The notes under the pieces are model-generated. The model was not told the origin of the DNA. It made no database searches and saw nothing but the letters and a program-made list of their open reading frames with translations. 64,000 bases of DNA, taken from assembly GCA_000004695.1 (NCBI GenBank), contig CM000153.2, positions 2,912,001 through 2,976,000 of the forward strand. Direction: 5' to 3'. Origin of the DNA: Dictyostelium discoideum (lineage: Eukaryota). A program made the translations under genes and the position numbers. Positions 2,765 to 55,249 of the stretch are shown here, piece after piece. Numbering within the stretch: position 1 is the stretch's first letter; each line of letters starts with the position of its first letter.

Positions 2765-2971
2765 ATATGTTTCAATGTGTATTTGATGGGTTTTTTTATA
2801 TTTAATGATGGAATATAGGCTTGAGTGAATAGTATCAGACTCTTATTAGGGAAAAGTCAGATGTGGAAACTGCCTAGGTTTTTTCTCTGCAAACGAAATC
2901 TAAACTCACTAAAGATGGAATCCCTAATGAATCGGATTGAAATCCGAATGCAAGATCTTTTCATAACTTTT
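2765..2971. repeat. Copy 1 of a ~207-bp GC-richer non-coding element of unknown nature
   Basis: Direct near-identical repeat of 3381..3589, differing by a single T. It contains the hairpin cggattgaaatccg and an internal T-run (ctaggttttttct). No long ORF. Confidence 0.7.
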
Positions 2972-3340
2972 AAAATTCAATTCAATTACACTTAAATTAT
3001 AGTTACATATAGTGGATATGTTATGGGAATAAAAAAAAAAAATGAAAATTTTTTTTTTTTATTTTTTTTTCGTTTTTTTTTTCGTTTTTTTTTTTTTCAA
3101 AATTAATAATAAATTAAGGGGGTCACATAGAAAATAAAAAAATAAAAAAGATGACAAACCCACCATCACACTGCATAAAATTACTTTTCACTTTAATGCT
3201 GAAATTATTACATCCAACCCTTATGATAGTGTAATAGTATTTTAAAGTTTGGAAAAACAGTGAAGGTTATGAATTTTATTTACAGTTTTTAAAATATTTT
3301 ATAATTTTTTTTTTTTTTTAAATTTAATAAAGAAATATTG

Positions 3341-3589
3341 GCCGTAGTGAATAGTACCTGACTCTTATAAGAGAAAAACCATATGTTTTCAATGTGTATT
3401 TGATGGGTTTTTTTTTATATTTAATGATGGAATATAGGCTTGAGTGAATAGTATCAGACTCTTATTAGGGAAAAGTCAGATGTGGAAACTGCCTAGGTTT
3501 TTTCTCTGCAAACGAAATCTAAACTCACTAAAGATGGAATCCCTAATGAATCGGATTGAAATCCGAATGCAAGATCTTTTCATAACTTT
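3341..3589. repeat. Partial 40-bp module (3341..3380) plus copy 2 of the ~207-bp element
   Basis: 3341..3380 (gccgtagtgaatagtacctgactcttataagagaaaaacc) resembles the internal segment at 2822..2861. 3381..3589 is near-identical to copy 1. Confidence 0.7.
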
Positions 3590-3676
3590 AAAAAATAATT
3601 TCAACTTTTGCTAAACTAATGTTTTGTCCAAACACTTGTTATGGGTTTTACAAAACTTTTCATTTTTTCATTTTTC

Positions 3677-6806: not shown

Positions 6807-7192
6807 TACCAATAACAACAATAATAACATTTAATAACAAATCTACTCTACATATACTTTTTTTAACTCTCTTTACTACAAATAATTAATATATAATAAA
6901 TTTAATTTTAAAAATTTAAATATATATATTATTATCAAAAATTTTATTTATTTAATTATTTAAAATTAAAATTAATTAATTTTTAATTTAATAATTTTTT
7001 TTTTTTTTCCTTAAAAATAAAAAAAAAAATTTTTTTTTCTTTTCCTTTTTTTTTAATCCATTAAAATTTAATACCCACAATTTAAAAAAAAAAAAATATA
7101 TAATTTCAAAATATACGCAAATATAGGCTAAAAAAACAAAAATAATTTTTTAATTTTTATTTAAAAAAAAAACCTTATTCCTATTTTTTGGT

Positions 7193-7292
7193 NNNNNNNN
7201 NNNNNNNNNNNNNNNNNNNNNNNNNNNNNNNNNNNNNNNNNNNNNNNNNNNNNNNNNNNNNNNNNNNNNNNNNNNNNNNNNNNNNNNNNNNN
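7193..7292. other. Assembly gap (100 N)
   Basis: A run of exactly 100 n characters. The flanking ORFs containing X residues are artifacts. Confidence 0.99.
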
Positions 7293-9849: not shown

Positions 9850-10740
9850 ATGACACCACCTAATGTCCCCGATGTTGGTAAGATTTCAATTTAACTATTT
9901 TTACATATTTTTATTTTTTTTATTTTTCTCAAAAAGAAACTAACAACTTTTTTTTTTTTTTTTTTTTTTTTCTATCTCTTTCTGTAAACACAGAAATGGG
10001 TATTGATAGAGTTAATAATGAAGATGATTCATTAAATAATATTTATAATCCATCAAAAGATCCAAATTATATAAAGTTAGTAAATGTAAGCTATTATTAT
10101 TATTATTTTTTTTTATTTTTTTATCATATAGTTTTTTATTATTTTTTATAAAGTATGTTAACAACAACAATAATTAAAAATTAATATTATATCTAGGTTT
10201 TAACTGAACTTAAATCAAATGGAATTAGTGATTCTGATCCAACATTTACTTCAATCTTACAAATTACTAAACTATATTTAATGAATAAAACTAATAGTGG
10301 TATCAATAATAATGGTGTCAATAATAATAATGGTAATAACAATAGTAATAATGATAATATAGTTGAATTATTTAAAGCACAAGTTGAATCATATAAATAT
10401 ATATCTAGAAATTTACCAATACCAGTTGGAGTTTTACAAAAGATGTCACCAATTTTAGAGAATTCACCACATGTACCATCATTTAAAGAGGAATTATTAA
10501 ATTTGAAATATTATCCAAAGGGATTAATTAAATTGGATCAAAATAATAACCCTATCACTACAAACACAATGGCATATCAACAATTGAGTTGTAACCAAAG
10601 AATGATTCAACAACAAAAAGAGAGAATACAACAAGAACAACAACAAGCACAACAACAAGAGCAAATTAGAATTTTACTACAAGAGAAACAATTAAGACAA
10701 ACTGAAACTTTAAATAATACAAATAATAATAACAATAATA

Positions 10741-10829
<89 letters not shown>

Positions 10830-10847
10830 AGCGCAAATGGTAATAAT

Positions 10848-10880
<33 letters not shown>

Positions 10881-13800
10881 ACAAACACAAATGGTAATAA
10901 TAATAATAATAATAATAATGAAATTGAAACATTAACAAAAGAAGAAGAATTAGAAAAAGAAAAAGAAATACAAAGATTAAGAGATTTACAAAAACCAATA
11001 ATTTATAAGAGTTGTATACCAGCAAGTGTTGAAAATATTAAAGGTTTACCAGAGGCTATTCATTCTATAAATGAGAGAGAAATGAAAATTCAAGCAAAAG
11101 TGATAACACGTATTGATGAATTGAAGGAGATACCAACTCATTATTTACCAACTGATGTTAGAATTAGATCAGAGATTGAGAGTAAACAATTGAAACTATT
11201 GGAATTACAAAGAAAACTTCGTAATGATGTATCGTTAGAGATGGAGGATCAAGTATTGATACGTTCAATTCAAAACAATAGCAAGGGATATGATGACAAT
11301 GATTACAATCTCTACGTACGTTCAATTCCACGTTTAATCAATAGACCTATCGATCAAACTAGTTCAATCTACGATACTACTACAACTCAATTACCAGAGA
11401 GTATATTGGTGACAAATAAAAAGAAATTCTTGGAAGCAATTGCAATTCATGCAAGAGATTTCAAAGTGTTTCATAGTAACAATGAGAAATTTCTTCGTCA
11501 AAATGTTATCAAAGCAATACATCGTTATCATAAAGAGAAAGAAAAGAGAGAGATTGAACGTTTATCAAAGGAACGTATTCGTTTACTTAAAGCACGTGAT
11601 ACCGAAGGTTATAGAGATCTTTTAGCAAAAACAAAGAATGAACGTTTAGAAATGCTTTTAGGTGAAACTGATTCCCTCTTAAGTAGTATTCATCAATTAA
11701 TGGAAAAAGAACAAACTGAAAAAAGAGCACGTGAATTAGAAGAAGAATTAAAACAAAATGAAGAACAATTAAATGATCATAATGGTACAAATACTAATAA
11801 CAACAATACCACCACCACTACCACCACTACTTCTACTACAACATCAACATCATTATCAAATGAAGGTCAACCAATTGCAAATATAACTTCACCACTCCAA
11901 TCAACTACAACTATTTTAGCAAAGAAATCAAATAATTTAGTGATTGAACAACCAGATCTTATGACTGGTGGTAAATTAAAAGAATATCAAGTAACTGGTT
12001 TAGAATGGTTAATTTCATTGTATACACGTAATTTAAATGGTATTTTAGCCGATGAAATGGGTCTTGGTAAAACTGTACAAACCATTGCATTCATTTCATT
12101 CCTTTATGAACGTATGAATGTTAGAGAGCCATTCTTGGTAGTAGCACCATTGTCAACCATTAGTAATTGGGTATCAGAGTTTGCACGTTGGTCACCAAAA
12201 CTTCATGTGATCGTTTACAAGGGTAAACAAGATGAGAGAAGAGAGACAGCAAGAACCATACCAAGGAATGCATTTTGTGTAGTTATCACCTCTTTTGAAT
12301 ATATCATAAAGGATAGAAAAACATTGGGTAGGGTTCATTGGATCTATATTATCATTGATGAAGGTCATCGTATCAAAAATAAAAATAGTAAACTCTCTGT
12401 ACAATTACGTCAATATCATAGTAGAAATAGATTACTACTCACAGGTACACCATTACAAAATGATTTGGGTGAGTTGTGGGCATTGTTAAACTTTTTGTTA
12501 CCAACTATTTTCAATTCAGCTGATACTTTCCAAAATTGGTTCAATGCACCATTCCAAGCAAAGGGTAAGAATTTAATCAATGTCAACGAAGAGGAGTCTT
12601 TGATCATTATCAATCGTCTCCATCAAGTTTTAAGATTTTTCTTATTACGTCGTTTGAAATCAGATGTAGAGAGCCAACTTCCAGACAAGAAGGAAAAAGT
12701 TATCAAATGTAATATGAGTGCACTTCAAATTGCAATGTATAGATCATTGGTAGAGTATGGTGTACTCCCAATCGATCCAGATTCAAAGGAGGGTAGAAGT
12801 GGAAGATTGAAAATGAAAGGTTTCAATAATATCGTTAAACAACTTCAAAAGATTTGCAATCATCCTTACCTCTTTAAAGATGAATGGGATATCAATGAGG
12901 ATCTCATTAGAACCAGTGGTAAATTCGATACTATGGACCAAATTCTAACGAAAATGCATGCCTCCAAACATCGTGTTCTCATTTTCACTCAAATGACAGA
13001 GGTTATCAATCTAATGGAGGAGTATTTCTCTTTGAAAGAATGGACTTTTCTTCGTTTGGATGGTTCAACTAAACCAGAGGAACGTGCTCATTTGGTTGTC
13101 GAATGGAATCGTCCTGATTCACCATTTTGGATTTTCGTACTCTCAACTCATGCCGGTGGTTTAGGTATGAATTTACAAACTGCCGATACTGTAATCATTT
13201 TCGATTCCGATTGGAATCCACAAATGGATCTTCAAGCTCAAGATAGATGTCATCGTATTGGTCAAACTAATTCTGTGTCGGTGTTTCGTTTAATCTCTGC
13301 CAACTCTATCGAAGAGAAAATTCTAGGTAGAGCCACCGATAAATTGGAGATCGATGCAAAGATTATTCAAGCCGGTATGTTTAACACTCATTCCAACGAT
13401 CAAGAAAGACGTGCAAAATTGGAACAATTCCTTCATGGTTTCCCCAATAATACTTTGGATGAAGTACCAGTGGATCTAAAGGAAATCAATAAATTGATTG
13501 CTCGTGATGACTTTGAATTCAAACAATTCCAAGAGATGGATAAAGAACGTTTGAAAGTGGATCAAGCAAATTCAAAGAAAACTAGACAACCAATTAAACC
13601 ACGTCTAATGATCGAAAAAGAATTACCTGAATGGGTTTTGGCAACTCCTGTCACCGATAAGGATGAAGATATCGCTGGTAAGAAACGTTCAACCGCCATT
13701 GCTTCTGCCAATAGTTTTGTTCATGATAATTTAACCGATAATCAATATGCTAGAATGATTGAAAAGAATATGACCTTTGAACAGTATAAAGCTCATTTAG

Positions 13801-14921
13801 AGGCAAAGAAATTAAAGAATGGCAAATCTAAAAAAGATGGTGAGAAAAGTAAAAAGAAAAAAGGTAAAAGTAGAGGTAGAAAGAATAAATCTGATGATGA
13901 AGACTCTTCCGATGATGAACTTGATGATGAAGGTATTTCATCTGATGATGATGATAATAATATTAATAATAATAATAATAATAATGATAATAATAATAAA
14001 AACAATAATAATAATGATGATGAAGAAACTGGTGCTATTCAAAAACAAATCGTTGAACGTCGTCGTGCTACCCCTCAACAACGTAAACAACAACGTCAAC
14101 AACAACAAGAAAAACAAAATCATGAAAATAATAGTGATAATGAAAATCAAGATGATATTATTCAAGTTGATGATCATCCAACTAATGGTATTGAAAATAG
14201 TAGTAACAATAATAATAATGATGATAATAATAGTAATGGTAATAGTAATCAACAACAACAACAACAACAATCCAATAATGGTGAAACACCAACACCTGCT
14301 AAAAAAGGTAGAGGTAGACCAAGATTATCAAATAATCCAACTCCAATTAAAAGAAAATTAGATGATCTTAAGGGTAAATCTGATGATAGTCCAAAACCAT
14401 CAAAGAAATCTTTAATGTCTGAAACAGAAACGAGTGACAACGAACAATCAATGGATTCTGGTGATAATAGTAATAATAATAATAATAATAATAACAGTAA
14501 TAATAATAATAATAACAATGAAAAAAATAATAATAGTAATGGTGAACCAAGTGAAAATGGTAGTCAAGAAAATGTAAATGGTAATGGTAATGTGGCTTCT
14601 ACTGCTGCAACAAATGGTACATCAGTTCATACTCCAGGTAAAAGAGGTAGAAAGAAGAAGATTAGACCAAACCCTGAAGATGAAGAAAAGGATAAAGATA
14701 AAGAAAATGAAAATGAAAATGAAAATGAAAAGGAAAAGGGAAATGAAAAAGATAAGGATCCAACTTCAACCACTTCTCCTACCACAACTACCACTTCAAC
14801 TTCAGCAGGCACTTCTTCTGGTTCATCATCATCAGTTTTAAATACCCCACTTTCTCCTGAATCTCCTTTTACAACTAGATCAGGTAGAACAAGATTTCCA
14901 AAAAATTCAACTGAACAATAA
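9850..14921 (+). CDS. SWI2/SNF2 (Brahma/Snf2-like) chromatin-remodeling ATPase, about 1615 aa
   Basis: Main exon 10197..14921. It contains an HSA-like region, the SNF2_N DEAD-like helicase LKEYQVTGLEWLISLY...DEMGLGKTVQTIAF and DEGHRIKN, and the helicase-C motifs [41 protein letters not shown]. A SnAC-like region and AT-hooks (KKGRGRPR, GKRGRKKK) follow; no bromodomain is seen. Proposed 5' exons are 9850..9877 (ATG...GATGTTG|gtaag) and 9994..10085, with phases 1 and 0 fitting. Confidence in the two small 5' exons is lower, about 0.45. Confidence 0.85.
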
Positions 14922-15171
14922 AATAACACCAACCATGTTAATCCAAACAAAAAAACAAAAAAAAAAAAAATATTTAAAAAAAAAAAATAAAAAAAAAAAT
15001 TAAAAATATCTATTTTCGTTCATTTTTTTCATTTCATTCGTTCGTTTTTTCATTTTATTTCGTTTTTTTATTTTTATTTTTATTTTTTTTTATCAAATTT
15101 CATTTTACAATATCCCATAATCTGCAATGAAAATTGGGGTAAAATAAAAGAAATGTTTTATTGAAATTTAA

Positions 15172-15388
15172 AAGTTATGACCAAACTCTTAGGATCATTT
15201 CTAGAGTATCGTCTATTAAAATTATTCATCAATAATTTTTCCTCTTTCACAGCTAGGATGATGATATACACTCACTACACGAAAGCGTGAAACCGTTATT
15301 ATCGAATGATTCATTTATTCTTTATTAATATTGATGACCGTCTAATTCAGGGATGAATTGGTTGTGTGGTGGGATTCGTACTGGCTCT
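15172..15388 (+). ncRNA. U3 small nucleolar RNA gene, copy A
   Basis: The 5' region UAUGACCAAACUCUUAGGAUCAUUUCUAGAGUAUCGUC matches the conserved U3 GAC/A'/A boxes (yeast UAGGAUCAUUUCUAUAGGAAUCGUC, human GGGAUCAUUUCUAUAG). Box C' is GGAUGAUGAUA, box B-like GCGUGAAACCG (human GCGUGAAGCCG), and box C UUGAUGACCGU. The gene ends at a T7 run (15388..15394). A DUSE motif TCCCATAA lies at 15113..15120, about 55 nt upstream. Confidence 0.8.
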
Positions 15389-15540
15389 TTTTTTAATTAA
15401 TTTAACGAAAAAAAAAAAATAAAAATTAGATATTTGTTAATAATTTTTTATTTTTTTTTTTTTATTTTTATTTTTTTTTTTTTTAATTATTATATTTTTT
15501 CTATGATATTAACAATTAGTATAAATTAAAATTAAATAAA

Positions 15541-16150
15541 ATGGGTAATTTTTTTTTTTTAAACAACAAGAAAAGGAAATTTCAATTGTTGTAGTAAACA
15601 AAGAAAGAGAACTTGATGTTTTTTTGGTATGTTTATTTTATTTTTTTCTAAATTTTTTTTTTCATAGCACTATATCGAAACTAATTACCAATTTATTATA
15701 TGTATAATATAGAACGTCTATGCAAATTCAAGTGATCAATTAATTGGTGAGAAAATTTACAAGAAAGGCGATATTGAAGAATTGGTTGGTACCAATAGTG
15801 GTCATTATTCAATTATCATTGATAGCAATGGTGAATCCGATGACGACCAACATCCAGTTGGTATTGAAACCCATTTGGTAATAAAGAGACCAAACATTTC
15901 CAATGAAACTGGTTTTGGTAGTTTCGCACATAGGAACTATAATTCAGATAAATTAATTAAAACAGTAAAAGTTGGTAAAGCACTTTTATTACATACAAAA
16001 GAATATGTTGAGGCTGATAATTGTAACAAATTTTTCATTCTTGTTAAACATTTTAATGATTTATTTTATAAATTCATTCAAGAACAATGTAGTGGTGACA
16101 TTTACTGGGTAGAAAGAATAATTGCCATAACTATGCAAGATTTTGCTTAG
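15541..16150 (+). pseudogene. LRAT/H-rev107 (PLAAT)-like NlpC/P60-superfamily gene, copy 1, apparently disrupted
   Basis: Two exons, 15541..15626 and 15713..16150. Exon 2 encodes GDIEELVGTNSGHYSIIIDSNGESDDDQHPVGIETHLV, resembling H-rev107 [26 protein letters not shown]. Exon 1 has a T12 run that shifts the frame relative to copy 2 (stop after 17 codons), and the internal ATG is ATT here. A 1-bp shorter G-run (tgggt versus tggggt) removes the catalytic NCHNYA motif, giving ...YWVERIIAITMQDFA*. Confidence 0.55.
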
Positions 16151-16528
16151 AATATTTGCATTTATCATGGCCTGATTCTGTTGTATAACCAACCGATGAC
16201 TATCCATTTTTATTGGATGTTTTAAAAATCCAAAAATGTCCATCGATTGCAACAAACCAATCATAAAAATTTCCCTAAAACATTTGAGAAAAAATAAAAA
16301 AAAAAAAAAAAAAAAAAATAATAATAATAATAAATTATATTCTCATAGTAATTAATTAAATTAAAAATTAATTTATAACATGATTTTTAATAAAATTAAT
16401 TTTCATATCTTTTTTGAATAAATTATAGAATTTTTTACAATTAATAAAAAAGGCCAAAAACAGATAATTGTTATTTTGTTTTATTTTATATTATTTTTTT
16501 TTTTTACTTTAATATATTAAAAACCTAT

Positions 16529-18101
16529 TTAGTTGAATTCTTTTCCAAATACTTTTTCAAAGTAAGATATTAATGTATAATTATTAGATGATGATTGGTT
16601 TTTTAAAGTTTCTTCAAATATTTCTAGATTTGGTTTAAAATTTAAGTCTTTAATTATAAAATCAATAAAGTCAATATATCCATATTGAAAAGAAGTCTCG
16701 AATATACCTTCAAAACCGATTGTTGCAATTTCATCTTTATATTTTTTATAAATATTAAGGTTTCCATAAATTCGAGCAGCATTTTTAGTTACTGCAATTA
16801 ATTCAAAGAAAGGTCCATATGGTCGTGTTTGTTCATTTAGTTGTTGTTGTCTTGAATTTATTAAAAATTCAATTGTTGATATATCATTTTTTTTAACGAT
16901 TTCCAAAACTGTTTTAATCTCAACAAAATTTCCATATCTATTATATCCATTGTTTGAAAATATCATTTCTTTCATTTTATCAAATTGACCATTTAAATAA
17001 TAGCAAGTAAATAATCCTTCATTATCATCAGTTTTAATTTTATGGGGATAATTTTTTAAAATATGATATTTGTTTTCAACTTCTAGATAAATATATCTTA
17101 AACTTTCAATTTTACTATTTTCAATACAATCTATTAGTTTGTTTAAAGTTGATACTTGAATTTCTTTATATGGTTTTCTTGTAAATTGTTGGTCAATATA
17201 TTTTTTTAAATTAATATTATTTTTGAAATCATTAAAATTTTCAATCATAAAATTAATATCACATTTTAAAATTGAAATATTTTTTTGACTAGATAATAAT
17301 GTATATTGTTGATAATAATTATTTTTAAAATGGTTTGCAATTTTATAATTTGAAATTATTTGACCAAAACAAAATGATTTTTCAATTACAGTTGGTCCAG
17401 AAAGTTTTTCAAGTTGATTTTTAATATAATCAAACATCAATGGTGATTTAATTGATTCAATCACTGATGTATTACAAATTGGCGGAAGACTCTCAAATGC
17501 CATCTTAACCAACTCGATATCATCTGATAATATGACCTCTTTAATTAAGTCGATTTTAATATTTGGAATTGATTCAGAATAAATAGCTGGAATTTGTTCG
17601 ATTGCATCTTTATAATATTGATGAATTAATTCTTTTTGATTTTTAACAAAACGAAATTTACTATCTGAAAATTTACCAGTTTGTACTTCTTGAAATGGAT
17701 GTTTGTATTCAATTCTACCAAAAGAAGAAAATTTTTCAGGATAAAATATACCAAACATATTTGGATGAAGACATGAACTAGGTTGTGATTTTAAATCTTC
17801 ATTTGATATCATTTTGCTATTGTATTTAAATTTATGAAATAAAAAATTTTCAATTATACTTTCTTTTTTAAAAATGTGTATTATTGCCATTTCATAAATT
17901 GATTTAACTCTTTCATCATTTGGGTTGAATTCACCAATTGTTGTTGATAACTCTTGTTTTGTAAATGATTTTGAAATTTCATTTAGTTCATTTTGATTTT
18001 TAAAACTTTTAAAACTTTTAATTTCATTTATATATTTTATTACTTGGTTTTGATTATTTTTCATTTGATCATTCTTTGAAGGTAATATAAATGGATTGTT
18101 A

Positions 18102-18172
<71 letters not shown>

Positions 18173-18194
18173 TTTATTATCATTATTTTTATTA

Positions 18195-18273
<79 letters not shown>

Positions 18274-19348
18274 CATTATTATTATTATTTTTATTACTAC
18301 TATTGTTGTCGTCATTCAAAATTGACTTTAATTTTGGTTTATATGAATCACTAAAACAATTTAAATTATTTAACCTTAAAATTGTTTTACATAAATCTAT
18401 AATTGAAGATAAAGGATAAGAGAATGCATAAAGTTGAATACAAAGTTTTGTATTTTTTGAATTTAATGATTCATTTGGTGTTTCGTTGATAAATTGTGGT
18501 ATTTTAATCTTTTCAATTAAAAATTCAATCTTTTCATTAAAGTTATTATTATCTTTAGTGAAATAAATATTTTCAGGTGAAAATACAGTTTCAAACCATA
18601 TACTATTTAATTGCGATTCTGTAATATCATCATTTGATTTAAATAATTGATTGAAAATATATTGTGCAACTTTTAATGACCCAATTGCAATAGCATTTTT
18701 AAAAAAGTTAAATGATAATTTTTTACCATTTGAATAATAATAATATTCATTAATTACTTTCATCGATGCAACATTATCATAAACCAATGATAAATATTTA
18801 ATTTCTCTTAATGATTTTAATTTTTTATTTTTAATACCATCATCATTAATTTCTGTTGACAATGGTGGCAATTGAAAATATAATTTATAATTTTTAAATA
18901 AATTTTTAAAAAATTCTTCATCATCTTTGAAAACATTGAAAATTGATGATTTATAATAAACTCTTATTTTTTTAAATTTTTTAGCATCTAATTTATCTCT
19001 TGATAAATTTATAGGTAAATAAGTTTTATTTAAATCACCTCTCGAGTTTGAATCGGTTTGCTGATCATCTTCTGGTGAATTACTACTGAATATTAATTGT
19101 TCACCTCTGATAACTTTACATTTTAATAATTCTGTATAACCATTTTTTATCATCCATCCTACTCTAACAATTTCTTCATATCTATAAATCCCATTTCTAA
19201 ATTCTGATTTTAAACTTGTGAATATTAAATTTTTTATATATTTATTTCTAAAAACAGAAAAAAATAATTTTTCAATGTCATAATTATTATTATGATTATT
19301 ATTATTTTCAATCTTTAATTTTTTTTTATAACGAAATGGATCATCCAT
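16529..19348 (-). CDS. Hypothetical protein of 939 aa with a long poly-N tract; family not recognised; paralog 1
   Basis: ATG-initiated uninterrupted ORF. About 90% identical, with indels, to the 21402..24143 ORF. An (AAT)n tract of about 190 nt at 18108..18300 encodes N/D/K. Confidence 0.6.
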
Positions 19349-19642
19349 TTATGATTTTGATTTCAAAAAAAAAAAAACAAAATTTTTTTTTTTTTTTTAA
19401 GATTTTTTTTTTTTTTTGATCAATAAAAAATAAATAATAAAGAAAAAAAAATCTTTTTAAAAAATAAAAAAAAAATGTAATAAAAACACAAAAAGAAAAT
19501 TTAATTTTAAACTTTTTTCTAAAAATTTTATACTTTTTTCTTTTTATTTTTTCGTTATTTTTTAATTTTTTTTTTAATTTTTAATCCCATAATTGTATTA
19601 ATTAATTGATATAAATAAAAGAAATGATTTATTGAAATTTAA

Positions 19643-19859
19643 AAGTTATGACCAAACTCTTAGGATCATTTCTAGAGTATCGTCTATTAAAATTATTCAT
19701 CAATAATTTTTCCTCTTTCACAGCTAGGATGATGATACACACTCACTACACGAAAGCGTGAAACCGTTATTATCGAATGATTCATTTATTCTTTATTAAT
19801 ATTGATGACCGTCTAATTCAGGGATGAATTGGTTGTGTGGTGGGATTCGTACTGGCTCT
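19643..19859 (+). ncRNA. U3 snoRNA gene, copy B
   Basis: Near-identical to copy A, with one t-to-c change in the box C' region. DUSE TCCCATAA at 19585..19592. T7 terminator at 19859..19865. Confidence 0.8.
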
Positions 19860-20276
19860 TTTTTTAATTAATTTAATGAAACAAAAATAATTTTATAAAA
19901 AAATTGGTAAATCAGATTTCATCCAATAAAGGCAATAATTAATGATGTTATTTTATTAATAAAAATTATTATTTTCATTTTTTTTTTTTAAATTTTAAAT
20001 TAAATATAATAAAAAAAAACTAATTAATTTTTGATGATATTTCTTGATTTTTTTTTTATTTTGTGAAAATAAAATTAAAGGAAGTAAAAAAATAAATAAT
20101 TAAAAAAAAAAAAAAAATTTTTATATATTTTATTTTATTATTTTGACACATTTATATACACTTTTTTTTTTTTATAATATATTTTTTTTTTTTTTTAATA
20201 ATTTTTTTTTTTTTTTTTAGTTATTTTTTTTTTTTTTTCTGATGTTAATAATTAGTAAAAATTAAAATTAAATAAA

Positions 20277-20920
20277 ATGGGTAATTATTTTTTTAAACAA
20301 CAAGAAAAGGAAATGTCAATTGTTGTAGTAAACAAAGAAAGAGAACTTGATGTTTATTTGGTATGTTTATTTTATTTTTCAAAATTTTTTTTTTTTTCAC
20401 AGTACTATATTGAAACTAACTAATAATTTATTAATGTATAATACAGAACGTCTATGCAAATTCAAGTGATCAATTAATTGGTGAGAAAATTTACAAGAGA
20501 GGTGCTATCGAAGAATTAGTTGGTACAAATAGTGGTCATTATTCAATTGTCATTGATAGAAATGGTGAGTAGGATGACGACCAACATCCAGTTGGTATTG
20601 AAATCCATTTGGTAATGAAGAGACCATACATTTCCAATGAAACTGGTTTTGGTAGCGCCCCAAGAAACTATATTTCAGATAAATTAATTAAAACAGTAAA
20701 AGTTGGCAAAGCACTTTTATTACAAACAAAAGAATACGTCGAGGCTGATAATTTTAAAAAAGGTGTCATTCTTGGTCAACATTTCAATAATTTATTTTAT
20801 AAATTCATTCAAGAACAATGTAGTGGTGACATTTACTGGGGTAGAAAGAATAATTGCCATAACTATGCAAGATTTTGCTTAGAATATTTGCATTTATCAT
20901 GGCCTGATTCTGTTGTATAA
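20277..20920 (+). pseudogene. LRAT/H-rev107-like gene, copy 2, carrying an in-frame TAG
   Basis: Two exons, 20277..20360 (MGNYFFKQQEKEMSIVVVNKERELDVYL) and 20447..20920. Exon 2 retains the C-terminal catalytic-type motif GDIYWGRKNNCHNYARFCLEYL (compare NCEHF of H-rev107). It has TAG at 20567..20569 (NGE*DDD) where copy 1 has TCC (Ser). Confidence 0.55.
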
Positions 20921-21239
20921 CCAACCGATGACTATCCATTTTTATTGGATGTTTTAAAAATCCAAAAATGTCCATCAATTGCAACAAACCAAACCTCTAA
21001 TCAAACAAATTAAAAAAACAATAAACTTTTATTCTTTATTATTATTTTTTTTTTTCATAAAATGATATCATTTATCATTAAATATAATAATATTATATTA
21101 TTTAATTTATTTTATTTATTTTAAAATCTTTTAAATGATGTTTAAGGTAGTTTTTCACACATTTTATATATGATTGTTTAAAGTTAAATAAAATTTTATT
21201 GGTATGGTGTTTGTATTTATTGTGTTTTTTTTTGCTTGT

Positions 21240-21300
21240 ATGTGTGGAAACTCTGCCAACTAGGTTGGAACGAAAAATTTGAAATGGATCGAATTGAACA
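21240..21300. repeat. Degenerate fragment related to the 2765/3381 element
   Basis: tgtggaaactctgccaactaggtt...acgaaaaatttgaaatggatcgaattgaacaag resembles tgtggaaactgcctaggtt...acgaaatctaaactcactaaagatggaatcc...gaatgcaag of the tandem element. Confidence 0.4.
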
Positions 21301-21401
21301 AGTTTTTTTAATATTCAAAAAAGGAATTAAAAAGTTTTGCCAGTATTAAAAAAGGCAAAAAACAGATAAATGACATTGTTATTTGTTTATTTAATACTAT
21401 T

Positions 21402-24143
21402 TTATTTTAATATTGAAAAACCTATTTGGTTGGGTTCTTTTCCAAATACTTTTTCAAAGTAAGATGTTAATGTATAATTATTAGATGATGATTGATTTTT
21501 TAAAGTTTCTTCAAATCTAGAAAGATTTGGTTCAAATTTTAAATCTTTAATTATAAAATCAATAATGTCAATATATCCATATTGAAAAGAAATATAGAAA
21601 TCACCTTCAAAATCCATTGTTTCAAAATAATCTTTAAGGTTTTTTAAAATATTAAGGTTTCCATAAATTCGAGCAGCATTTTTAAGTGCCCTAATTAATT
21701 CAATGAAAAGTTCTTTTGGTCTTGTTTGTTGTGTTTGATCATTTTGTTGTTGTAGTTGTTGTCTTGAATTTATTAAAAATTCAATTGTTGATATATCATT
21801 TCTTTTAACGATTTCAAAAATTGTATAAATTTCAACAAATCTAACACATCCATTTTCTGAAAATATCATTTCTTTCATTTTATCAAATTGACCATTTAAA
21901 TAATAGCAAGTAAATAATCCTTCATTATCATCAGTTTTAATTTTATGAGGATAATTTTTTAAAACATGATAATGGCATTCAACTTTTGGACAAATATATC
22001 TTAAACTTTCAATTTTACTATTTTCAATACAATCTATTAATTTATTTAAAGTTGAAACTTGAATTTCTTCATTTGATTTTCTTGTAAATTGTTGACCAAT
22101 GTATGTATTTAAATTAATATTATTTTTGAAATCATTAAAATTTTCAATCATAAAATTAATATCACATTTTGAAATTGAAATATTTTCTTGACCAGAAAAT
22201 AATGAATATTGTTGATAATAATAATTTTTAAAATGGTTTGCAATTTTATAATTTGAAATGATTTGATCGAAACAAAGTGAATTTTCAGTTGGTTTAGAAA
22301 GTTTTTCAAGTTGATTTTTAATATAATCAAACATCAATGGTGATTTAATTGATTCAATCACTGATGTATTAAAATTTAGTGGATGAAGACTCTCAAATAC
22401 CATCTTAACCAACTCAATATCATCTGATAATATGACCTCTTTAATTAAGTCTATTTTAATATTACCAGAAAAGTGAGCTGGAATTTGTTCGATTGCATCT
22501 TTATAATATTGATGAATTAATTCTTTTTGATTTTTAACAAAACAAAATTTACTATCTGGAAATTTACCAATTTGTACTTTTTCAAATGGATTTTTATAAT
22601 CAATTTTAGCAAAAGAAGAAAATTTTTCAATTTGTATTTTTTCATGATTTTTATAATCACTACTAATAAAAGCAAAAGGTGAAGAAATTTTTTCAAGATA
22701 AAATATACCAAACATATTTGGATGAAGACATGAACTAGGTTGTGATTTTAAATCTTCATTTGATATCATTTTGCTATTGTATTTAAATTTATGAAATAAA
22801 AAATTTTCAATTATACTTTCTTTTTTAAAAATGTGTATTATTGCCATTTCATAAATTTTTTTAACTCTTTTATCATTTGACTTGAATTCACCGATTTTTG
22901 TTGATAACTCTTGTTCTGTAAATGATTTTGAAATTTTATTTAATTCATCTAGATTTTTAAAACTTTTAAAACTTTTAATTTCATTTATATATTTTATTAC
23001 TTGGTTTTGATTATTTTTCATTTGATCATTTTTTAAAGATAATGTAAATGGATTGTTATTTTTATTATTATTATTATTACTATTGTTGTCATTCAAAATT
23101 GATTCCAGTTTTGATTTATATGAATCATTATTTAAAATATTTAGTAGTAAAATTGTTTTACATAAACCTATTATTAAAGATAAAGGATAAGAGAATGCAT
23201 AAAGTTGAATACAAAGTTTTGTATTTTTTGAATTTAATGATTCATTTGGTGTTTCGTTGATAAATTGTGGTATTTTAATTTCTTCAATTAAAAATTCAAT
23301 CTTTTCATTAAAATTATTATTATCTTTAGTGAAATAAATATTTTCAGGTACAAATACGGTTTCAGACCATATACTATTTAATTGTGATTCTGTAATTTCA
23401 TCATTTGATTTAAATAATTGATTGAAAATATATTGTGCAACTTTTAATGACCCAATTGCAATAGCATTTTTAAAAAAGTTGAATGATAACTTTTTACCAT
23501 TTGAATAATAATAATATTCATTAATTACTTTAATTGATGCCACATTATCATAAACCAATGACAAATATTTAATTTCTCTTAATGATTTTAATTTTTTATT
23601 TTTAATACCATCATCGTCATCATTGTCATCATCATTAATTTCTTTTTCTTGATTTTTTTGATTTTGTTCTGGTAATTGAAAATATAATTTATAATTTTTA
23701 AATAAATTTTTAAAAAATTCTTCATCATCTTTGAAAACATTGAAAATTGATGATTTATAATAAACTCTTTTTTTTTTAAATTTTTTAACATCTAATTTAT
23801 CTCTTGATAAATTTATAGGTAAATAAGTGTTATCGAAATCACCTCTCAATTTTGAATCATAATAAGTTTGTGGACCATCTTCTGGTGAATTACTACTGAA
23901 TATTAATTGTTCACCTCTGATAACTTTACATTTTAATAATTCTGTATAACCATTTTTTATCATCCATCCCACTCTAACAATTTCTTCATATCTATAAATC
24001 CCATTTCTAAATTCTGATTTTAAACTTGTGAATATTAAATTTTTTATATATTTATTTCTAAAAACAGAAAAAAATAATTTTTCAATATTGTTATTATTAT
24101 TTTCAATTTTTAATTTTTTTTTATAACGAAATGGATCATCCAT
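21402..24143 (-). CDS. Hypothetical protein of 913 aa; paralog 2 of the 16529..19348 gene
   Basis: ATG ORF. It shares the N-terminus MDDPFRYKKKLKIENNNN...IEKLFFSVFRNKYIKNLIFTSLKSEFRNGIYRYEEIVRVGWMIKNGYTELLKCKVIRGEQLIF with paralog 1. The central poly-N is mostly deleted, and there is an extra roughly 30-aa insertion (FAFISSDYKNHEKIQIEKFSSFAKIDYKNP). Confidence 0.6.
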   Translation of the reverse strand: MDDPFRYKKKLKIENNNNNIEKLFFSVFRNKYIKNLIFTSLKSEFRNGIYRYEEIVRVGWMIKNGYTELLKCKVIRGEQLIFSSNSPEDGPQTYYDSKLRGDFDNTYLPINLSRDKLDVKKFKKKRVYYKSSIFNVFKDDEEFFKNLFKNYKLYFQLPEQNQKNQEKEINDDDNDDDDGIKNKKLKSLREIKYLSLVYDNVASIKVINEYYYYSNGKKLSFNFFKNAIAIGSLKVAQYIFNQLFKSNDEITESQLNSIWSETVFVPENIYFTKDNNNFNEKIEFLIEEIKIPQFINETPNESLNSKNTKLCIQLYAFSYPLSLIIGLCKTILLLNILNNDSYKSKLESILNDNNSNNNNNKNNNPFTLSLKNDQMKNNQNQVIKYINEIKSFKSFKNLDELNKISKSFTEQELSTKIGEFKSNDKRVKKIYEMAIIHIFKKESIIENFLFHKFKYNSKMISNEDLKSQPSSCLHPNMFGIFYLEKISSPFAFISSDYKNHEKIQIEKFSSFAKIDYKNPFEKVQIGKFPDSKFCFVKNQKELIHQYYKDAIEQIPAHFSGNIKIDLIKEVILSDDIELVKMVFESLHPLNFNTSVIESIKSPLMFDYIKNQLEKLSKPTENSLCFDQIISNYKIANHFKNYYYQQYSLFSGQENISISKCDINFMIENFNDFKNNINLNTYIGQQFTRKSNEEIQVSTLNKLIDCIENSKIESLRYICPKVECHYHVLKNYPHKIKTDDNEGLFTCYYLNGQFDKMKEMIFSENGCVRFVEIYTIFEIVKRNDISTIEFLINSRQQLQQQNDQTQQTRPKELFIELIRALKNAARIYGNLNILKNLKDYFETMDFEGDFYISFQYGYIDIIDFIIKDLKFEPNLSRFEETLKNQSSSNNYTLTSYFEKVFGKEPNQIGFSILK

Positions 24144-24421
24144 TTATGATTTATTAATAATTTAAAAAAAAAAAAAAAAAAAACAATAAAAAAAAAAAAC
24201 TTTTTTAATAAAAAAAACTTAATTTAATAAAGAAAAAAAAAAATAAAGAAATAATAAAGAAAAAAAACCCTTAATTTGAAAAAAAAAAAAATTTTAAAAA
24301 AAAAAAAAAAAAAATGGAGGGAAAAAAATTAGGTTTTCATTTTTTTTTTTTTTTTTTTTTTAATCCCATAATTTCTTTAATTAATTTATATAAATAAAAC
24401 AAATGTTTTATTGAAATTTAA

Positions 24422-24638
24422 AAGTTATGACCAAACTCTTAGGATCATTTCTAGAGTATCGTCTATTAAAATTATTCATCAATAATTTTTCCTCTTTCAC
24501 AGCTAGGATGATGATACACACTCACTACACGAAAGCGTGAAACCGTTATTATCGAATGATTCATTTATTCTTTATTAACATTGATGACCGTCTAATTCAG
24601 GGATGAATTGGTTGTGTGGTGGGATTCGTACTGGCTCT
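24422..24638 (+). ncRNA. U3 snoRNA gene, copy C
   Basis: Near-identical to copies A and B. DUSE TCCCATAA at 24364..24371. T-run terminator at 24638..24644. No LRAT-like gene follows this copy. Confidence 0.8.
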
Positions 24639-25305
24639 TTTTTTAATTAATTTAATGAAAAAAAAAATGAATTTAAAATTCTTTAACCAATAAACCAGAT
24701 TTTATTCTTTTAAGGCAATAAAAATTTAATTATTTTTTTAAATGGTTCCTGATTAATACATATTAAAAAAAAAAAAAAAAAAAAAAAAATTATAATTATT
24801 ATATCATATAAATAATTTTTTTTTTTTTTTTTTTTTTTAATTTAAATAATTTCAATTATCATGATATTTAATTTTAAATTTTTTTTTTTTATTATTTTAT
24901 TTTTTTACTTCCATTAATTTTAATTTCAACAAAACAAAGCAAAACCAAAAATAGACGAAAAGAAATCACACAAATTTGTGTTTATAAAAAAAAAAAATAA
25001 AAAAAAAAAAATCTTTTTTATTTTTATTTTTTATTTTTTAATTTTTTTTAAAAAAAAATTTTAAATTTTTCAGACGAGCATTTTTGACTCATCTATTTTT
25101 TTTTTATTTTTTTTAAAATTTAATTTTTTTTTTTTTTTCCCTTTTCTTTTTTTTTTCTTTTATTAATTATTTATTGTGTTTCATTGTTTATAACAATACC
25201 AATATAAAATTTAAATAATAATAATAATAATAGTAATATAAATAAAATTAAAATAGAGAATAAGATTAGACTGTAAAATAAAACAATAAAAAAAAAGAAG
25301 AAATC

Positions 25306-53338: not shown

Positions 53339-55249
53339 TTATCTAGAGTTATCATTTATCATCTGTAAATCTCTTGAAAATGAGAGACGTTTCCAAAATC
53401 TTGGACTAGCGGAAGTGAAAAGTTTTGGAGGGGTTTTATCTTTCTTTGATTTCTGTAATTGTACATATTCATCATGTTTTTGTTGAAGGTCAGTGATTTT
53501 TGAAACTTCATTCAAATAATTGTCATATTCTTCCTTGGTGACGATGAGATTTGCCTTGAGTTCCTCTTGTTCCTGATAGGAGAAACCAATGTTATCAAGA
53601 TAGCCTGGAACACTACCATACATTTTATCGATCCAAGTCAAAAGACCCTCCATAGTCCAACGATGGGATCTTACAAATTCATCTTTTGCTAAACCTACAC
53701 GAGTAAAGTATTTCTTAATTTGGTCGATGAATTGGGCGATATTTGCTTCAGACTTTGAATAGTCATCGATTACGACTTCTCTTGATACACCCAATGCCGA
53801 TAAGAGCAATGCTGATACCATACCGGTACGATCTTTACCCAATGAACAATAGTACATGATTGGATAGTTATCAGGATTCTTTAAGATTCTAAAGATGGTA
53901 AGGATTTCCTCCTTGGTGTAAATCAATGTCAATTTGTACATCTCTATGATACCCAAATCATTTAGATGATTCATTAACATGTAACCACCGATTTGATCAT
54001 TGAATAAGAGGTAACGAGCTGCATTACATTTTAATTTGGTATCATTTGGTGCAGTTGCGTAAACACCCTCTAAAAAAAATTTATTATTAATTAATGGTAT
54101 ACAAAAACGTTTTCTTAAAACACCACTACTATGTGAACGTAATTTTGTCAATTCTTCTGGTGTCAAATTTCTATTATAAATTCTCCATAAAATACCATTT
54201 CTTTGTTCCTCCATATCTTTTTGTTTTTCATTCTTTCTTTCAATTGCAACTGGGATTCCTCCACCTGATTTTCTTAAACTTACACCACCACCACTACCAT
54301 TACTATTGCTACTTGTCAAATTTGGACTTTTATTACCATTATTATTACTATTACTACTCAAACTACCACCTAAATTATTATTTTCATTAACATTGGTACT
54401 ATTATTAAAACCACTATTATTTAAATTATTATTACCATTATTACCCATTCCGCTGTTACCCAAACCACTATTGTTACCCATGCCACTATTACCCAAATTA
54501 TTATTACCCATGCCACTATTACCCAAACCACTATTACCCAAACCACTATTACCTAAATTACTACCTTTTGAATTTGCTAATTCACTACTAATTTGTGATC
54601 TTTGAGATGGTGGTGACGGTCTACCATCATCTTTTATTGAATATTGTATGAAATTATCTTCAAACTTTCTAACTGGTGATATAGTTTTATTCTCCCATGA
54701 TGTTCTTAAATCTATTAATGTTTTTATATTTAATACTTCTAATAACCAAAATTCATCACTAACTGTTGCATTTGTTGGTCCTGCTGATCTACATACTACT
54801 CCTGGTCTTACAACATTTTGGCCACTAAAGAAATTTTATACATTTTAAATAAATAAAAAAAAAATAAAAAAATTTTATTATTATTATTATTATTAGTATT
54901 GTGTCTATTAAAAAAAAAAAATATGTAAAAATAAAAAATTAAATAATTACTCTCCAATTGGTATACCACCTAACGATCTAAAATTTGATATTGCTTCCAA
55001 ATTGATACCTTTGGTGAAAGAATAAAAAAGTATGGAAAATAAGGGAAAACATAAATAAAAAAATAAGAGAATGGTCAGTATGAGAAAAGTAAAATTATGG
55101 GTTATTATAAATGATATAACAAATGAAATAACAAATAAATTTGTTATATAATGATATGAATGATCCATACTACTTCCTGGTTGATTATCTAATTTAAATG
55201 TTGAGGTCCCAATTACTGGTTCTATTTCCTCAAATTGTGGGGCACTCAT
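53339..55249 (-). CDS. Protein tyrosine/serine phosphatase of the Y_phosphatase3 (PF13350) family, 3 exons
   Basis: Proposed complement(join(53339..54824, 54951..55008, 55171..55249)). The N-terminal family motif NFRSLGGIPIG|D|GQNVVRPGVVCRSAGP (NFRDLGG...G.LYRS) is split over exons 2 and 3, and the splice phases 1 and 2 reproduce it exactly. A DLRTSWE motif follows. The CX5R catalytic loop is YCSLGKDRTGMVSALLL. A G/N-rich GNSG[LM]GNN repeat block is inserted between the N-terminal motif and the catalytic domain. The exon 1 donor is ambiguous between 55171 and 55174. Confidence 0.8.

What the first reader, a model, noticed from the sequence alone, without database searches (positions are those of the whole stretch)
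15110..24650. Three U3 snoRNA genes with DUSE promoters punctuate a 4.7-kb tandem segmental duplication and are more conserved than the co-duplicated proteins
Seen in sequence: three roughly 217-nt elements (15172..15388, 19643..19859, 24422..24638) differ by only one or two substitutions. The two large genes in the same duplication units are only about 90% identical, with multiple indels. Each element starts about 55 nt downstream of a TCCCATAA motif and ends in a T7 run. Its 5' region matches the universally conserved U3 GAC/A'/A boxes (UAGGAUCAUUUCUAgAG), with C', B-like (GCGUGAAACCG) and C (UUGAUGACCG) boxes downstream. Established knowledge: [AT]CCCA[CT]AA is the Dictyostelium upstream sequence element found about 60 nt upstream of small ncRNA genes, and U3 (the D2 RNA) is multicopy in this organism. 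Inference: the U3 genes sit at the unit boundaries, U3-[LRAT-like gene]-[large gene]-U3-...-U3, so they may have mediated the unequal crossing-over. Their near-identity implies gene conversion or strong purifying selection. The 3' box D is non-canonical here (ACUGG rather than CUGA).
Basis: partly seen in the sequence, partly recalled or inferred. Interest (0 to 1): 0.6.

Follow-up and report, generated by a model that had tools for sequence, protein, structure and literature searches.

The report
Three clustered Dictyostelium U3 snoRNA genes
These are three ordinary, almost certainly functional copies of the long-known Dictyostelium U3 (D2) small nucleolar RNA gene, sitting at the unit boundaries of an old tandem gene array; selection and copy-to-copy correction keep them nearly identical while their neighbours decay.

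Summary
Rfam's U3 model hits three full-length + strand copies at 86-89 bits against a cut-off of 34: 15177-15386, 19648-19857 and 24427-24636, 210 nt each. They differ at only two positions. Each has TCCCATAA (DUSE) starting 64 nt before the RNA start, a TATA-like box near -38/-28, and a T7 run 2 nt after the 3' end.

They punctuate a tandem array: U3-A-B-U3-A-B-U3, with periods of 4471 and 4779 nt. U3 copies are 99.5% identical. By comparison, promoters are 81-90%, gene A 92%, gene B 93% (dS 0.12), and other spacers 57-71%, some no better than shuffled sequence.

The syntenic locus of the sister species Dictyostelium cf. discoideum holds one intact U3, a truncated U3 next to SNF2, and fragments of A and B. 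The array therefore predates the species split. Intact U3 genes differ at 3-4 of 210 positions between species. All four variable sites are structure-neutral, and two are species-specific in every copy. This points to purifying selection plus concerted evolution.

Not supported: the 'LRAT-like' label, since A is disabled in every copy and has no Pfam hit. Origin by U3-mediated crossing-over remains untested. The box D position reads CGUA.

U3/D2 and DUSE are already known, so interest is low.

The parts
15113..15120 (+). DUSE (TCCCATAA) of U3a, starting 64 nt before the RNA start
   Evidence: The motif is invariant in all three copies and in the sister-species ortholog, while the sequence between it and the TATA-like box has diverged.
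15140..15149 (+). TATA-like box of U3a (TAAAATAAAA, about -37 to -28). This is the start of the conserved proximal promoter block, which ends in TTGAAATTTAAAAGTT just before the RNA start.
15177..15386 (+). U3 snoRNA gene a (210 nt)
   Evidence: Rfam RF00012, 86.1 bits, full model. The fold has the terminal stem AGCUAG/CUGGCU.
15388..15394 (+). T7 run 2 nt after the U3a 3' end, followed by the conserved AATTAATTTAA
   Evidence: A T>=6 run starts within 5 nt of only 3.4% of window positions.
15433..16260 (+). Gene A copy 1: small gene with a frameshift just before the ...GRKNNCHNYARFC... segment (pseudogene)
   Evidence: No Pfam hit.
16529..19348 (-). Gene B copy 1: 939-aa Dictyostelium-only orphan ORF
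19585..19592 (+). DUSE (TCCCATAA) of U3b
19648..19857 (+). U3 snoRNA gene b (210 nt). It is the positional ortholog of the single intact U3 in D. cf. discoideum (L002 9493-9702, - strand).
20167..20992 (+). Gene A copy 2: in-frame stop (..RNGE*DDDQ..), pseudogene
21402..24143 (-). Gene B copy 2: 913 aa, named DDB_G0285173 by NCBI
24364..24371 (+). DUSE (TCCCATAA) of U3c
24427..24636 (+). U3 snoRNA gene c (210 nt)
   Evidence: Rfam, 88.6 bits.
15100..24741 (+). Whole tandem array U3-A-B-U3-A-B-U3. The left edge is at the U3a promoter and the right edge about 105 nt past U3c.
   Evidence: Self-BLAST, unit alignment.

Best explanation
The three elements are independent, functional genes for the Dictyostelium discoideum U3 small nucleolar RNA (the 210-nt 'D2' RNA). 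From established U3 biology, this RNA base-pairs with pre-rRNA in the small-subunit processome through its 5' GAC/A'/A boxes and assembles a snoRNP on its C'/D and B/C motifs. Each gene has its own snRNA-type promoter: DUSE starting at -64, a TATA-like box at about -38/-28, and a conserved TTGAAATTTAAAAGTT block ending at -1. Each ends just before a T7 run. The genes sit at the unit boundaries of a tandem array (U3-A-B)n that already existed in the common ancestor of D. discoideum and its sister species D. cf. discoideum. Two forces keep the U3 copies nearly identical. The first is strong purifying selection: only four structure-neutral sites vary among the four intact genes of the two species. 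The second is concerted evolution within the array, by gene conversion and/or unequal crossing-over, which also leaves long perfectly identical tracts in the passenger genes. Gene A is a pseudogene in every copy. Gene B is a fast-evolving orphan. AT-rich spacers have drifted, in places beyond alignment. Shown here: U3 identity, promoter anatomy, array structure, the conservation contrast, and the presence of the array in the sister species. Inferred: expression and function of all three copies, conversion as the homogenising mechanism, and retention of the array for U3 dosage.
For: U3 identity. There are three full-length RF00012 hits at 86-89 bits against GA 34, with the GAC/A'/A, C', B and C boxes aligned. 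The 210-nt length matches the published D2 entry. A terminal stem forms and the fold z-score is -2.3. DUSE lies at the literature distance of about 60-63 nt.

Conservation contrast. Identities are U3 0.995, promoter 0.81-0.905, pseudogene A 0.917, B CDS 0.929, other spacers 0.57-0.71. The A-B paralog spacer comparison is at the shuffled level. B1-B2 dS is 0.118, which predicts about 23 neutral changes in 210 nt; 1 is seen.

Age of the array. The syntenic locus L002 of D. cf. discoideum reads SNF2 - U3 fragment (U3 nt 138-210, 94.5% identity) - B - intact U3 (90.8 bits) - A - B 3' fragment - A fragment - VMP1. The B 3'-end quartet groups by position, (B1,cfB)|(B2,cfBfrag), with 12:2:1 informative sites. 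The A-B spacer is clearly alignable between positional orthologs but not between paralogs.

Selection. Intact U3 genes differ at 3-4 of 210 positions between species, against dS 0.13-0.16 and 10-12% divergence in pseudogene A. Two of the four variable sites (91, 137) are unpaired. The other two (153, 167) are G.U<->G-C changes in stems.

Concerted evolution. Positions 137 and 167 are A/U in all three D. discoideum copies and G/C in both cf. copies, including the truncated one. B1-B2 (92.9%, dS 0.118) and A1-A2 (91.4%) are closer to each other than to their positional orthologs. Identical tracts of 161 nt in B (beyond 99.9% of simulations) and 138 nt in pseudogene A also point this way.
Against: No expression data could be examined, so activity of each copy is inferred from intact promoters and sequence. 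The concerted-evolution signal within U3 itself rests on only two sites in a ~75-nt overlap with a pseudogene fragment. B-U3 spacers are too degraded to confirm positional orthology. Only one other species could be retrieved, so there is no outgroup to root the comparisons, and rate differences between lineages could distort the three-taxon patterns. The box D position reads CGUA rather than CUGA, and I could not confirm here that the published, expressed D2 RNA has this 3' end. The polymerase (II or III) is not determined. The sister-species assembly could contain errors in a repeated region, although its fragments are diverged copies rather than collapsed ones.
Confidence: 0.75

Rival explanations
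1. Purifying selection alone explains the near-identity. No gene conversion acts on U3, and the species-specific shared sites are parallel transitions or reflect independent array turnover in each lineage.
For: U3 is almost as conserved between species (3-4 of 210 differences) as between paralogs (1-2 of 210). All variable sites are structure-neutral transitions, the class most prone to recurrence. Only two sites support conversion within U3.
Against: The neighbouring neutral pseudogene A and gene B also look homogenised. Paralogs are closer than positional orthologs, and there are 138- and 161-nt perfect tracts. This is despite a duplication that predates the split. Conversion therefore operates in the array, and U3 is its best substrate.
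Confidence: 0.2
2. The U3 genes caused the duplication: non-allelic recombination between two pre-existing direct U3 copies flanking A-B produced the U3-A-B-U3-A-B-U3 pattern.
For: In D. discoideum there are n units and n+1 U3 genes. The array starts at the U3a promoter and ends about 105 nt after U3c. U3 provides the longest near-perfect homology, ~250-265 nt with a single mismatch (longest perfect run 172 nt), in the unit.
Against: The sister species retains an A fragment to the right of the U3c position. The ancestral array therefore continued past U3c, and the terminal-U3 pattern is at least partly due to later deletion. Any part of a tandem unit can mediate unequal exchange once a duplication exists. 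The lesions seen in the sister species (loss of the U3a 5' half, loss of A1) are not U3-to-U3 events.
Confidence: 0.2
3. The near-identity only reflects a very recent duplication, with U3 no more conserved than neutral sequence.
For: None beyond the identity itself.
Against: Flanks drop to 57-71% identity, pseudogene A to 92%, and dS of B is 0.118. The array is shared with a sister species.
Confidence: 0.02
4. One or more of the three copies is a silent variant or pseudogene, for example because of the non-canonical box D, and expressed U3 comes from other loci.
For: Box D reads CGUA instead of CUGA in all copies. D2/U3 is described as a dispersed multigene family (Wise and Weiner 1980, as cited), so other loci exist.
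Against: All three keep DUSE, the TATA-like box, the proximal block, the full-length RNA and the T-run. The same CGUA is kept in the intact sister-species gene, whereas the truly dead copy there is truncated and accumulating changes. Variation is limited to structure-neutral sites.
Confidence: 0.08

Closest known systems
Dictyostelium discoideum D2 RNA = U3 snoRNA (Wise and Weiner 1980, Cell 22:109; GenBank V00190)
   Same: It has the same length, 210 nt, and is a full-length U3 covariance-model match. U3 is multi-copy in this organism.
   Different: The family was described as 'dispersed', whereas three copies here lie within 9.5 kb in a tandem array. I could not retrieve V00190 to compare base by base.
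DUSE-promoted small ncRNA genes of Dictyostelia (spliceosomal snRNAs, Class I RNAs; PMC3188802, PMC7919456)
   Same: The [AT]CCCA[CT]AA motif lies about 60-63 nt upstream of the RNA start. The motif is conserved while the surrounding sequence drifts.
   Different: Here there is no TGTG box. Instead there is a conserved TATA-like box and a TTGAAATTTAAAAGTT proximal block, which is shared with a second unidentified RNA gene pair in the window.
Concerted evolution of multi-copy snRNA/snoRNA gene arrays (for example vertebrate U1/U2 tandem arrays, from my own knowledge; Euglena multi-copy U3 loci, PMC2784804)
   Same: RNA-coding segments are kept near-identical within a genome while spacers diverge, and copy number differs between close species.
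   Different: The repeat unit here is large (4.5-4.8 kb) and carries two protein-type passenger genes. There are only 2-3 units, not tens. Tandem U3 genes were looked for and not found in Euglena.
Pol III-transcribed U3 genes of plants, trypanosomatids and another protist (PMC2784804, section 12)
   Same: The genes are independently promoted, with upstream elements plus a TATA-like box and a T-run immediately after the 3' end.
   Different: Polymerase usage in Dictyostelium is not established here, and DUSE serves both Pol II and Pol III genes. From memory, unverified: D2 was reported to carry a trimethylguanosine cap, which would argue for Pol II.

Membership tests
U3 snoRNA (Rfam RF00012) | Covariance-model score above the curated gathering threshold over the full model | tested here: met
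   86.1, 85.8 and 88.6 bits against 34, model positions 1-219. The sister-species ortholog scores 90.8 bits.
U3 snoRNA (Rfam RF00012) | 5' domain with GAC, A' and A boxes (pre-rRNA pairing region) | tested here: met
   AUGACCAAACUCUUAGGAUCAUUUCUAGAGU aligns to the model consensus with high posterior probability.
U3 snoRNA (Rfam RF00012) | Box C' (GAUGAUGA), box B (AGCGUGAA) and box C (UUGAUGA) in the 3' domain, with the B/C hairpin | tested here: met
   All three boxes align exactly, and the variable site 153 changes G.U to G-C in the B/C stem.
U3 snoRNA (Rfam RF00012) | Canonical box D (CUGA) next to the terminal stem, forming the C'/D k-turn | tested here: not met
   The model's UCUGA aligns to UCGUA. 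CUGGCU after it is the terminal-stem strand. The same sequence is present in the sister species. Only the first sheared G.A pair would be retained, and the MFE fold pairs AUGA with UCGU instead.
U3 snoRNA (Rfam RF00012) | Complementarity of the hinge regions and box A to the 5' ETS and 18S pre-rRNA; nucleolar snoRNP | not testable with these tools
   The Dictyostelium rDNA sequence is not in the window, and none of the collections I searched returned one.
DUSE-dependent ncRNA gene | [AT]CCCA[CT]AA about 60-63 nt upstream of the transcription start | tested here: met
   TCCCATAA starts at -64 in all three copies and in the ortholog. The distance is as in PMC3188802 and PMC7919456. The motif count alone is not above chance.
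DUSE-dependent ncRNA gene | Transcription depends on the element | not testable with these tools
   This needs promoter mutation or expression data.
Concertedly evolving tandem gene family | The duplication predates the species split | tested here: met
   There is a truncated U3 next to SNF2 and fragments of B and A in the sister species. The positional quartet is 12:2:1. The A-B spacer aligns between positional orthologs but not between paralogs.
Concertedly evolving tandem gene family | Paralogs within a genome are more alike than positional orthologs, and share derived states | tested here: inconclusive
   The criterion is met for B (92.9% against 89-90%; dS 0.118 against 0.134-0.164) and for A. 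For U3 it rests on 2 shared sites and 1-2 against 3-4 differences. With only two species and no outgroup the numbers are small.
   The fragments have no Pfam hit at E<=0.1 and a repaired 157-aa sequence has none at E<=1. The only PDB sequence hit is an unrelated acetyltransferase at E=0.46. Only a ...NCHNY... motif resembles the family.

The most novel reading that the evidence does not exclude
The array is in effect a U3-dosage cassette. Selection for several U3 genes has kept a 4.5-4.8-kb tandem unit since before the D. discoideum / D. cf. discoideum split. Ongoing conversion homogenises U3 and, as a by-product, resurfaces its passengers: a pseudogene that never disappears and a fast-evolving orphan. 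In addition, dictyostelid U3 would work with a C'/D motif that lacks the canonical CUGA (it reads CGUA), implying a variant or absent k-turn at the site where Snu13 normally nucleates the snoRNP.
Probability: 0.3. Interest if true: 0.35.

Novelty: already known. Interest (0 to 1): 0.2.

Why it matters
It matters little beyond annotation. U3 (D2) has been known in Dictyostelium since 1980 and DUSE is an established promoter motif, so standard Rfam annotation would find these genes. Three modest additions come from this work. The first is a worked example of how a functional RNA gene, a pseudogene, an orphan gene and spacers diverge at very different rates inside one tandem array, with a sister-species comparison that separates selection from concerted evolution. 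The second is that the U3 box D position is non-canonical in two species, which could interest people working on k-turn and Snu13 recognition. The third is a second, unidentified DUSE-driven RNA gene pair in the same window.

Tried and rejected
1. Retrieving more dictyostelid syntenic loci failed. The VMP1 query was run with too strict an E-value and returned one unrelated short protein. The SNF2 ATPase query returned only distant eukaryotic SNF2 proteins and no dictyostelid orthologs. An exact look-up of the A2 product found only the source assembly.

2. The metagenome scan for U3-like 5' ends found one contig, which is a chance match in a Bacillaceae sequence.

3. The distant paralogs of gene B in D. 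dimigraforme and in another D. discoideum assembly (L004, L005) have no U3 nearby, so U3 is not generally linked to this gene family.

4. Rfam does not recognise the truncated sister-species U3 fragment. BLAST does.

5. The published D2 sequence could not be recovered. The alignment in PMC2784804 is an image. Aspegren 2004, Hinas 2006, Eichinger 2005 and Boesler 2011 are not held. Searching the literature for the literal sequences found nothing.

6. 'LRAT-like' was rejected for lack of any profile support.

7. A recent duplication as the cause of identity was rejected.

8. The second DUSE RNA (X) as a diverged U3 was rejected: its local alignment score is at the shuffled level.
Full report
**Source and context.** The window has 21.8% G+C. 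Its 939-aa ORF is encoded on chromosome record CM142510.1 of assembly GCA_054883475.1. The paralogous 913-aa ORF is named DDB_G0285173 of Dictyostelium discoideum AX4 by NCBI. The region lies between an SNF2-type ATPase gene (10281-14921, +) and a VMP1 gene (from about 25306, +).

**Checking the observation.**
- Reading the three sites and aligning them confirms three almost identical elements.
- A gathering-threshold Rfam scan of the whole window returns exactly three hits. All are U3 (RF00012), all on the + strand, and all cover the full model: 15177-15385 (86.1 bits), 19648-19856 (85.8) and 24427-24635 (88.6), against a cut-off of 34.
- Including the last base of the terminal stem, the RNA is 210 nt (15177-15386, 19648-19857, 24427-24636). 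This is the length of the published D2/U3 gene entry, V00190 nt 62-271, as listed in PMC2784804.
- The copies differ only at RNA positions 91 and 153.
- TCCCATAA starts 64 nt upstream of each RNA start. This is the distance the literature gives for the Dictyostelium upstream sequence element: about 63 bp in PMC3188802 and about 60 nt in PMC7919456.
- The 8-mer is not enriched in the window as a whole, with 7 found against 9.3 expected. The evidence lies in its fixed position and in its conservation while the adjacent sequence drifts.
- A TATA-like box (TAAAATAAAA or TATAAATAAAA, about -38 to -28) and a proximal block TTGAAATTTAAAAGTT are also conserved.
- A T7 run begins 2 nt after the 3' end. 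A run of six or more T starts within 5 nt of only 3.4% of positions in this window.

**Array structure.** Self-comparison and a global alignment of the two units show U3a-A1-B1-U3b-A2-B2-U3c. The U3-to-U3 periods are 4471 and 4779 nt. The array begins at the U3a promoter and ends about 105 nt after U3c.

| Segment | Identity between units |
|---|---|
| U3 | 0.995 |
| DUSE-to-start promoter | 0.81 (a/b), 0.905 (b/c) |
| Gene A | 0.917 |
| Gene B coding sequence | 0.929, with 348 gapped columns |
| Other spacers | 0.57-0.71 |

For the A-B spacer the paralog comparison is no better than shuffled sequence.

**The passenger genes.**
- Gene B (939 and 913 aa, - strand) has no Pfam family. It has only four database relatives, all from Dictyostelium.
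- Nei-Gojobori estimates for B1/B2 give dS 0.118 and dN/dS 0.58, at 86.8% amino-acid identity.
- Gene A (+ strand) is disabled in each copy: a frameshift in A1 and an in-frame stop in A2.
It has no meaningful PDB sequence hit. The 'LRAT-like' label therefore rests on a short NCHNY-type motif only.

**Comparison with a sister species.** The closest relative of B (P0002, 71% identity, full coverage) comes from 'Dictyostelium cf. discoideum', assembly GCA_054859235.1. Its locus L002 is syntenic, lying between VMP1 and SNF2.
- Rfam finds one intact U3 there, at 90.8 bits.
- BLAST of the window against L002 and of U3 against L002 gives this order, in window orientation: SNF2 - a truncated U3 (U3 nt 138-210, 94.5% identity) - B - intact U3 - A - a 3' fragment of a second B - a fragment of a further A - VMP1.
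- A multi-unit array therefore existed before the two species split and has since decayed differently in each.
- Two further results support this. At the 3' end of B, informative sites group by position, (B1,cfB)|(B2,cfBfrag), at 12:2:1. The A-B spacer aligns between positional orthologs well above the shuffled level but not between paralogs.
- The B-U3 spacers are too degraded to be informative.
- The sister-species A copy has two further, different in-frame stops. A is thus a pseudogene everywhere and serves as a roughly neutral yardstick.

**Selection versus concerted evolution.**
- Between species, the intact U3 genes differ at 3-4 of 210 positions (1.4-1.9%). The comparison values are dS of 0.134-0.164 for B and 10-12% divergence for pseudogene A.
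- The four variable sites among the four intact genes are all transitions, and all are structurally neutral. Positions 91 and 137 are unpaired. Positions 153 and 167 switch G.U to G-C in stems.
- The truncated copy is accumulating other changes. This is the signature of strong purifying selection on a functional RNA.
- There are also signs of homogenisation. Positions 137 and 167 are A and U in all three D. discoideum copies but G and C in both sister-species copies, including the truncated one at the U3a position.
- B1 and B2 (92.9%, dS 0.118) and A1 and A2 (91.4%) are more alike than either is to its positional ortholog.
- The alignment contains perfectly identical tracts of 161 nt inside B, longer than in 99.9% of simulations, and 138 nt inside pseudogene A. 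These are comparable to the 172-nt tract over U3b/c.
- The simplest reading is that gene conversion or unequal exchange operates across the array, and that U3 is additionally held by selection.
- The U3-specific part of this argument rests on two sites and one comparison species, so I rate it as probable, not proven.

**Did U3 cause the duplication?** The n units with n+1 U3 genes fit recombination between flanking U3 copies. However, the sister species keeps an A fragment to the right of where U3c would be. The ancestral array therefore did not end with a U3 on that side. The lesions seen in the sister species are not U3-to-U3 events. This inference remains untested.

**Box D and the polymerase.** The Rfam alignment places the model's UCUGA opposite UCGUA. 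The following CUGGCU pairs with AGCUAG as the terminal stem. It is identical in the sister species. In the minimum-free-energy fold, AUGA of box C' pairs with UCGU. I could not retrieve the published D2 sequence to confirm that the expressed RNA has this end.

U3 is a Pol III transcript in plants, trypanosomatids and another protist (PMC2784804), and DUSE serves both polymerases. The T7 run is compatible with Pol III. My recollection that D2 carries a trimethylguanosine cap, unverified here, would argue for Pol II. The polymerase remains open.

**What is known.** U3/D2 of Dictyostelium was described in 1980 as a multigene family (citation confirmed). DUSE is an established motif. Near-identity of multi-copy small-RNA genes with divergent spacers is a classic pattern. 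The genes are caught by routine Rfam annotation. I therefore class the finding as already known. The small additions are the tandem arrangement, its age, the decay of its passengers and the odd box D.

**Verdict.** Novelty: already known. Interest: 0.2.

Noticed in passing
window 2765-2964 (-) and 3387-3583 (-); DUSE at 3021-3028 (-) and 3639-3646 (-): This is a second duplicated, DUSE-driven, RNA-like gene pair ('X'). TCCCATAA or ACCCATAA starts about 63-64 nt upstream of AUGAAAAGAUCUUGCAUUCGGAUUUCAAUCCGA... The two copies are 100% identical for about 170 nt and 99% over about 197 nt, while the stretch between DUSE and the start has diverged. They share the U3 proximal promoter block TTGAAWTTTAAAAGTT|ATGA, but the RNA body is unrelated to U3. 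There is no Rfam match even at E<=1 and no T-run at the 3' end. The fold gives two hairpins separated by AGAGAA (H-box-like), with z = -2.3. The sequence also contains CCCUAA. Its identity is unknown; it could be an H/ACA-like or other lineage-specific small RNA.
   Followed up: partly
window 15433-16260 and 20167-20992 (+); L002 8356-9202 (-): The small gene A is disabled differently in every copy: a frameshift in A1, one stop in A2, and two stops in the sister species. It has nevertheless persisted in the array since before the species split. The source assembly still-aa and 101-aa products from it.
   Followed up: yes
window 16107-16244 / 20839-20976 and 17740-17900 / 22697-22857: There are perfectly identical tracts of 138 nt (in pseudogene A) and 161 nt (in gene B) between units that are otherwise 7-8% diverged. 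These are candidate recent gene-conversion tracts outside U3.
   Followed up: partly
L002 12864-12936 (-) (D. cf. discoideum): A truncated U3 pseudogene (3' 73-85 nt, plus the T-run and conserved 3' flank) lies directly after the SNF2 gene. It marks the U3a position in the sister species. The promoter and the 5' 130 nt are deleted.
   Followed up: yes
window 7073-7080 (+) and 7193-7292: An ACCCACAA DUSE-like motif lies about 110 nt before a 100-N assembly gap, so any RNA gene it might drive would be at or in the gap. A further match at 55095-55102 (-) has no obvious RNA downstream.
   Followed up: partly
window 3320-3370 (-): A degenerate partial repeat of the 3' part of X (AAGAGTCAGGTACTATTCACTACGGCC...) follows copy X2. 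It suggests local duplication and decay around that RNA gene as well.
   Followed up: no
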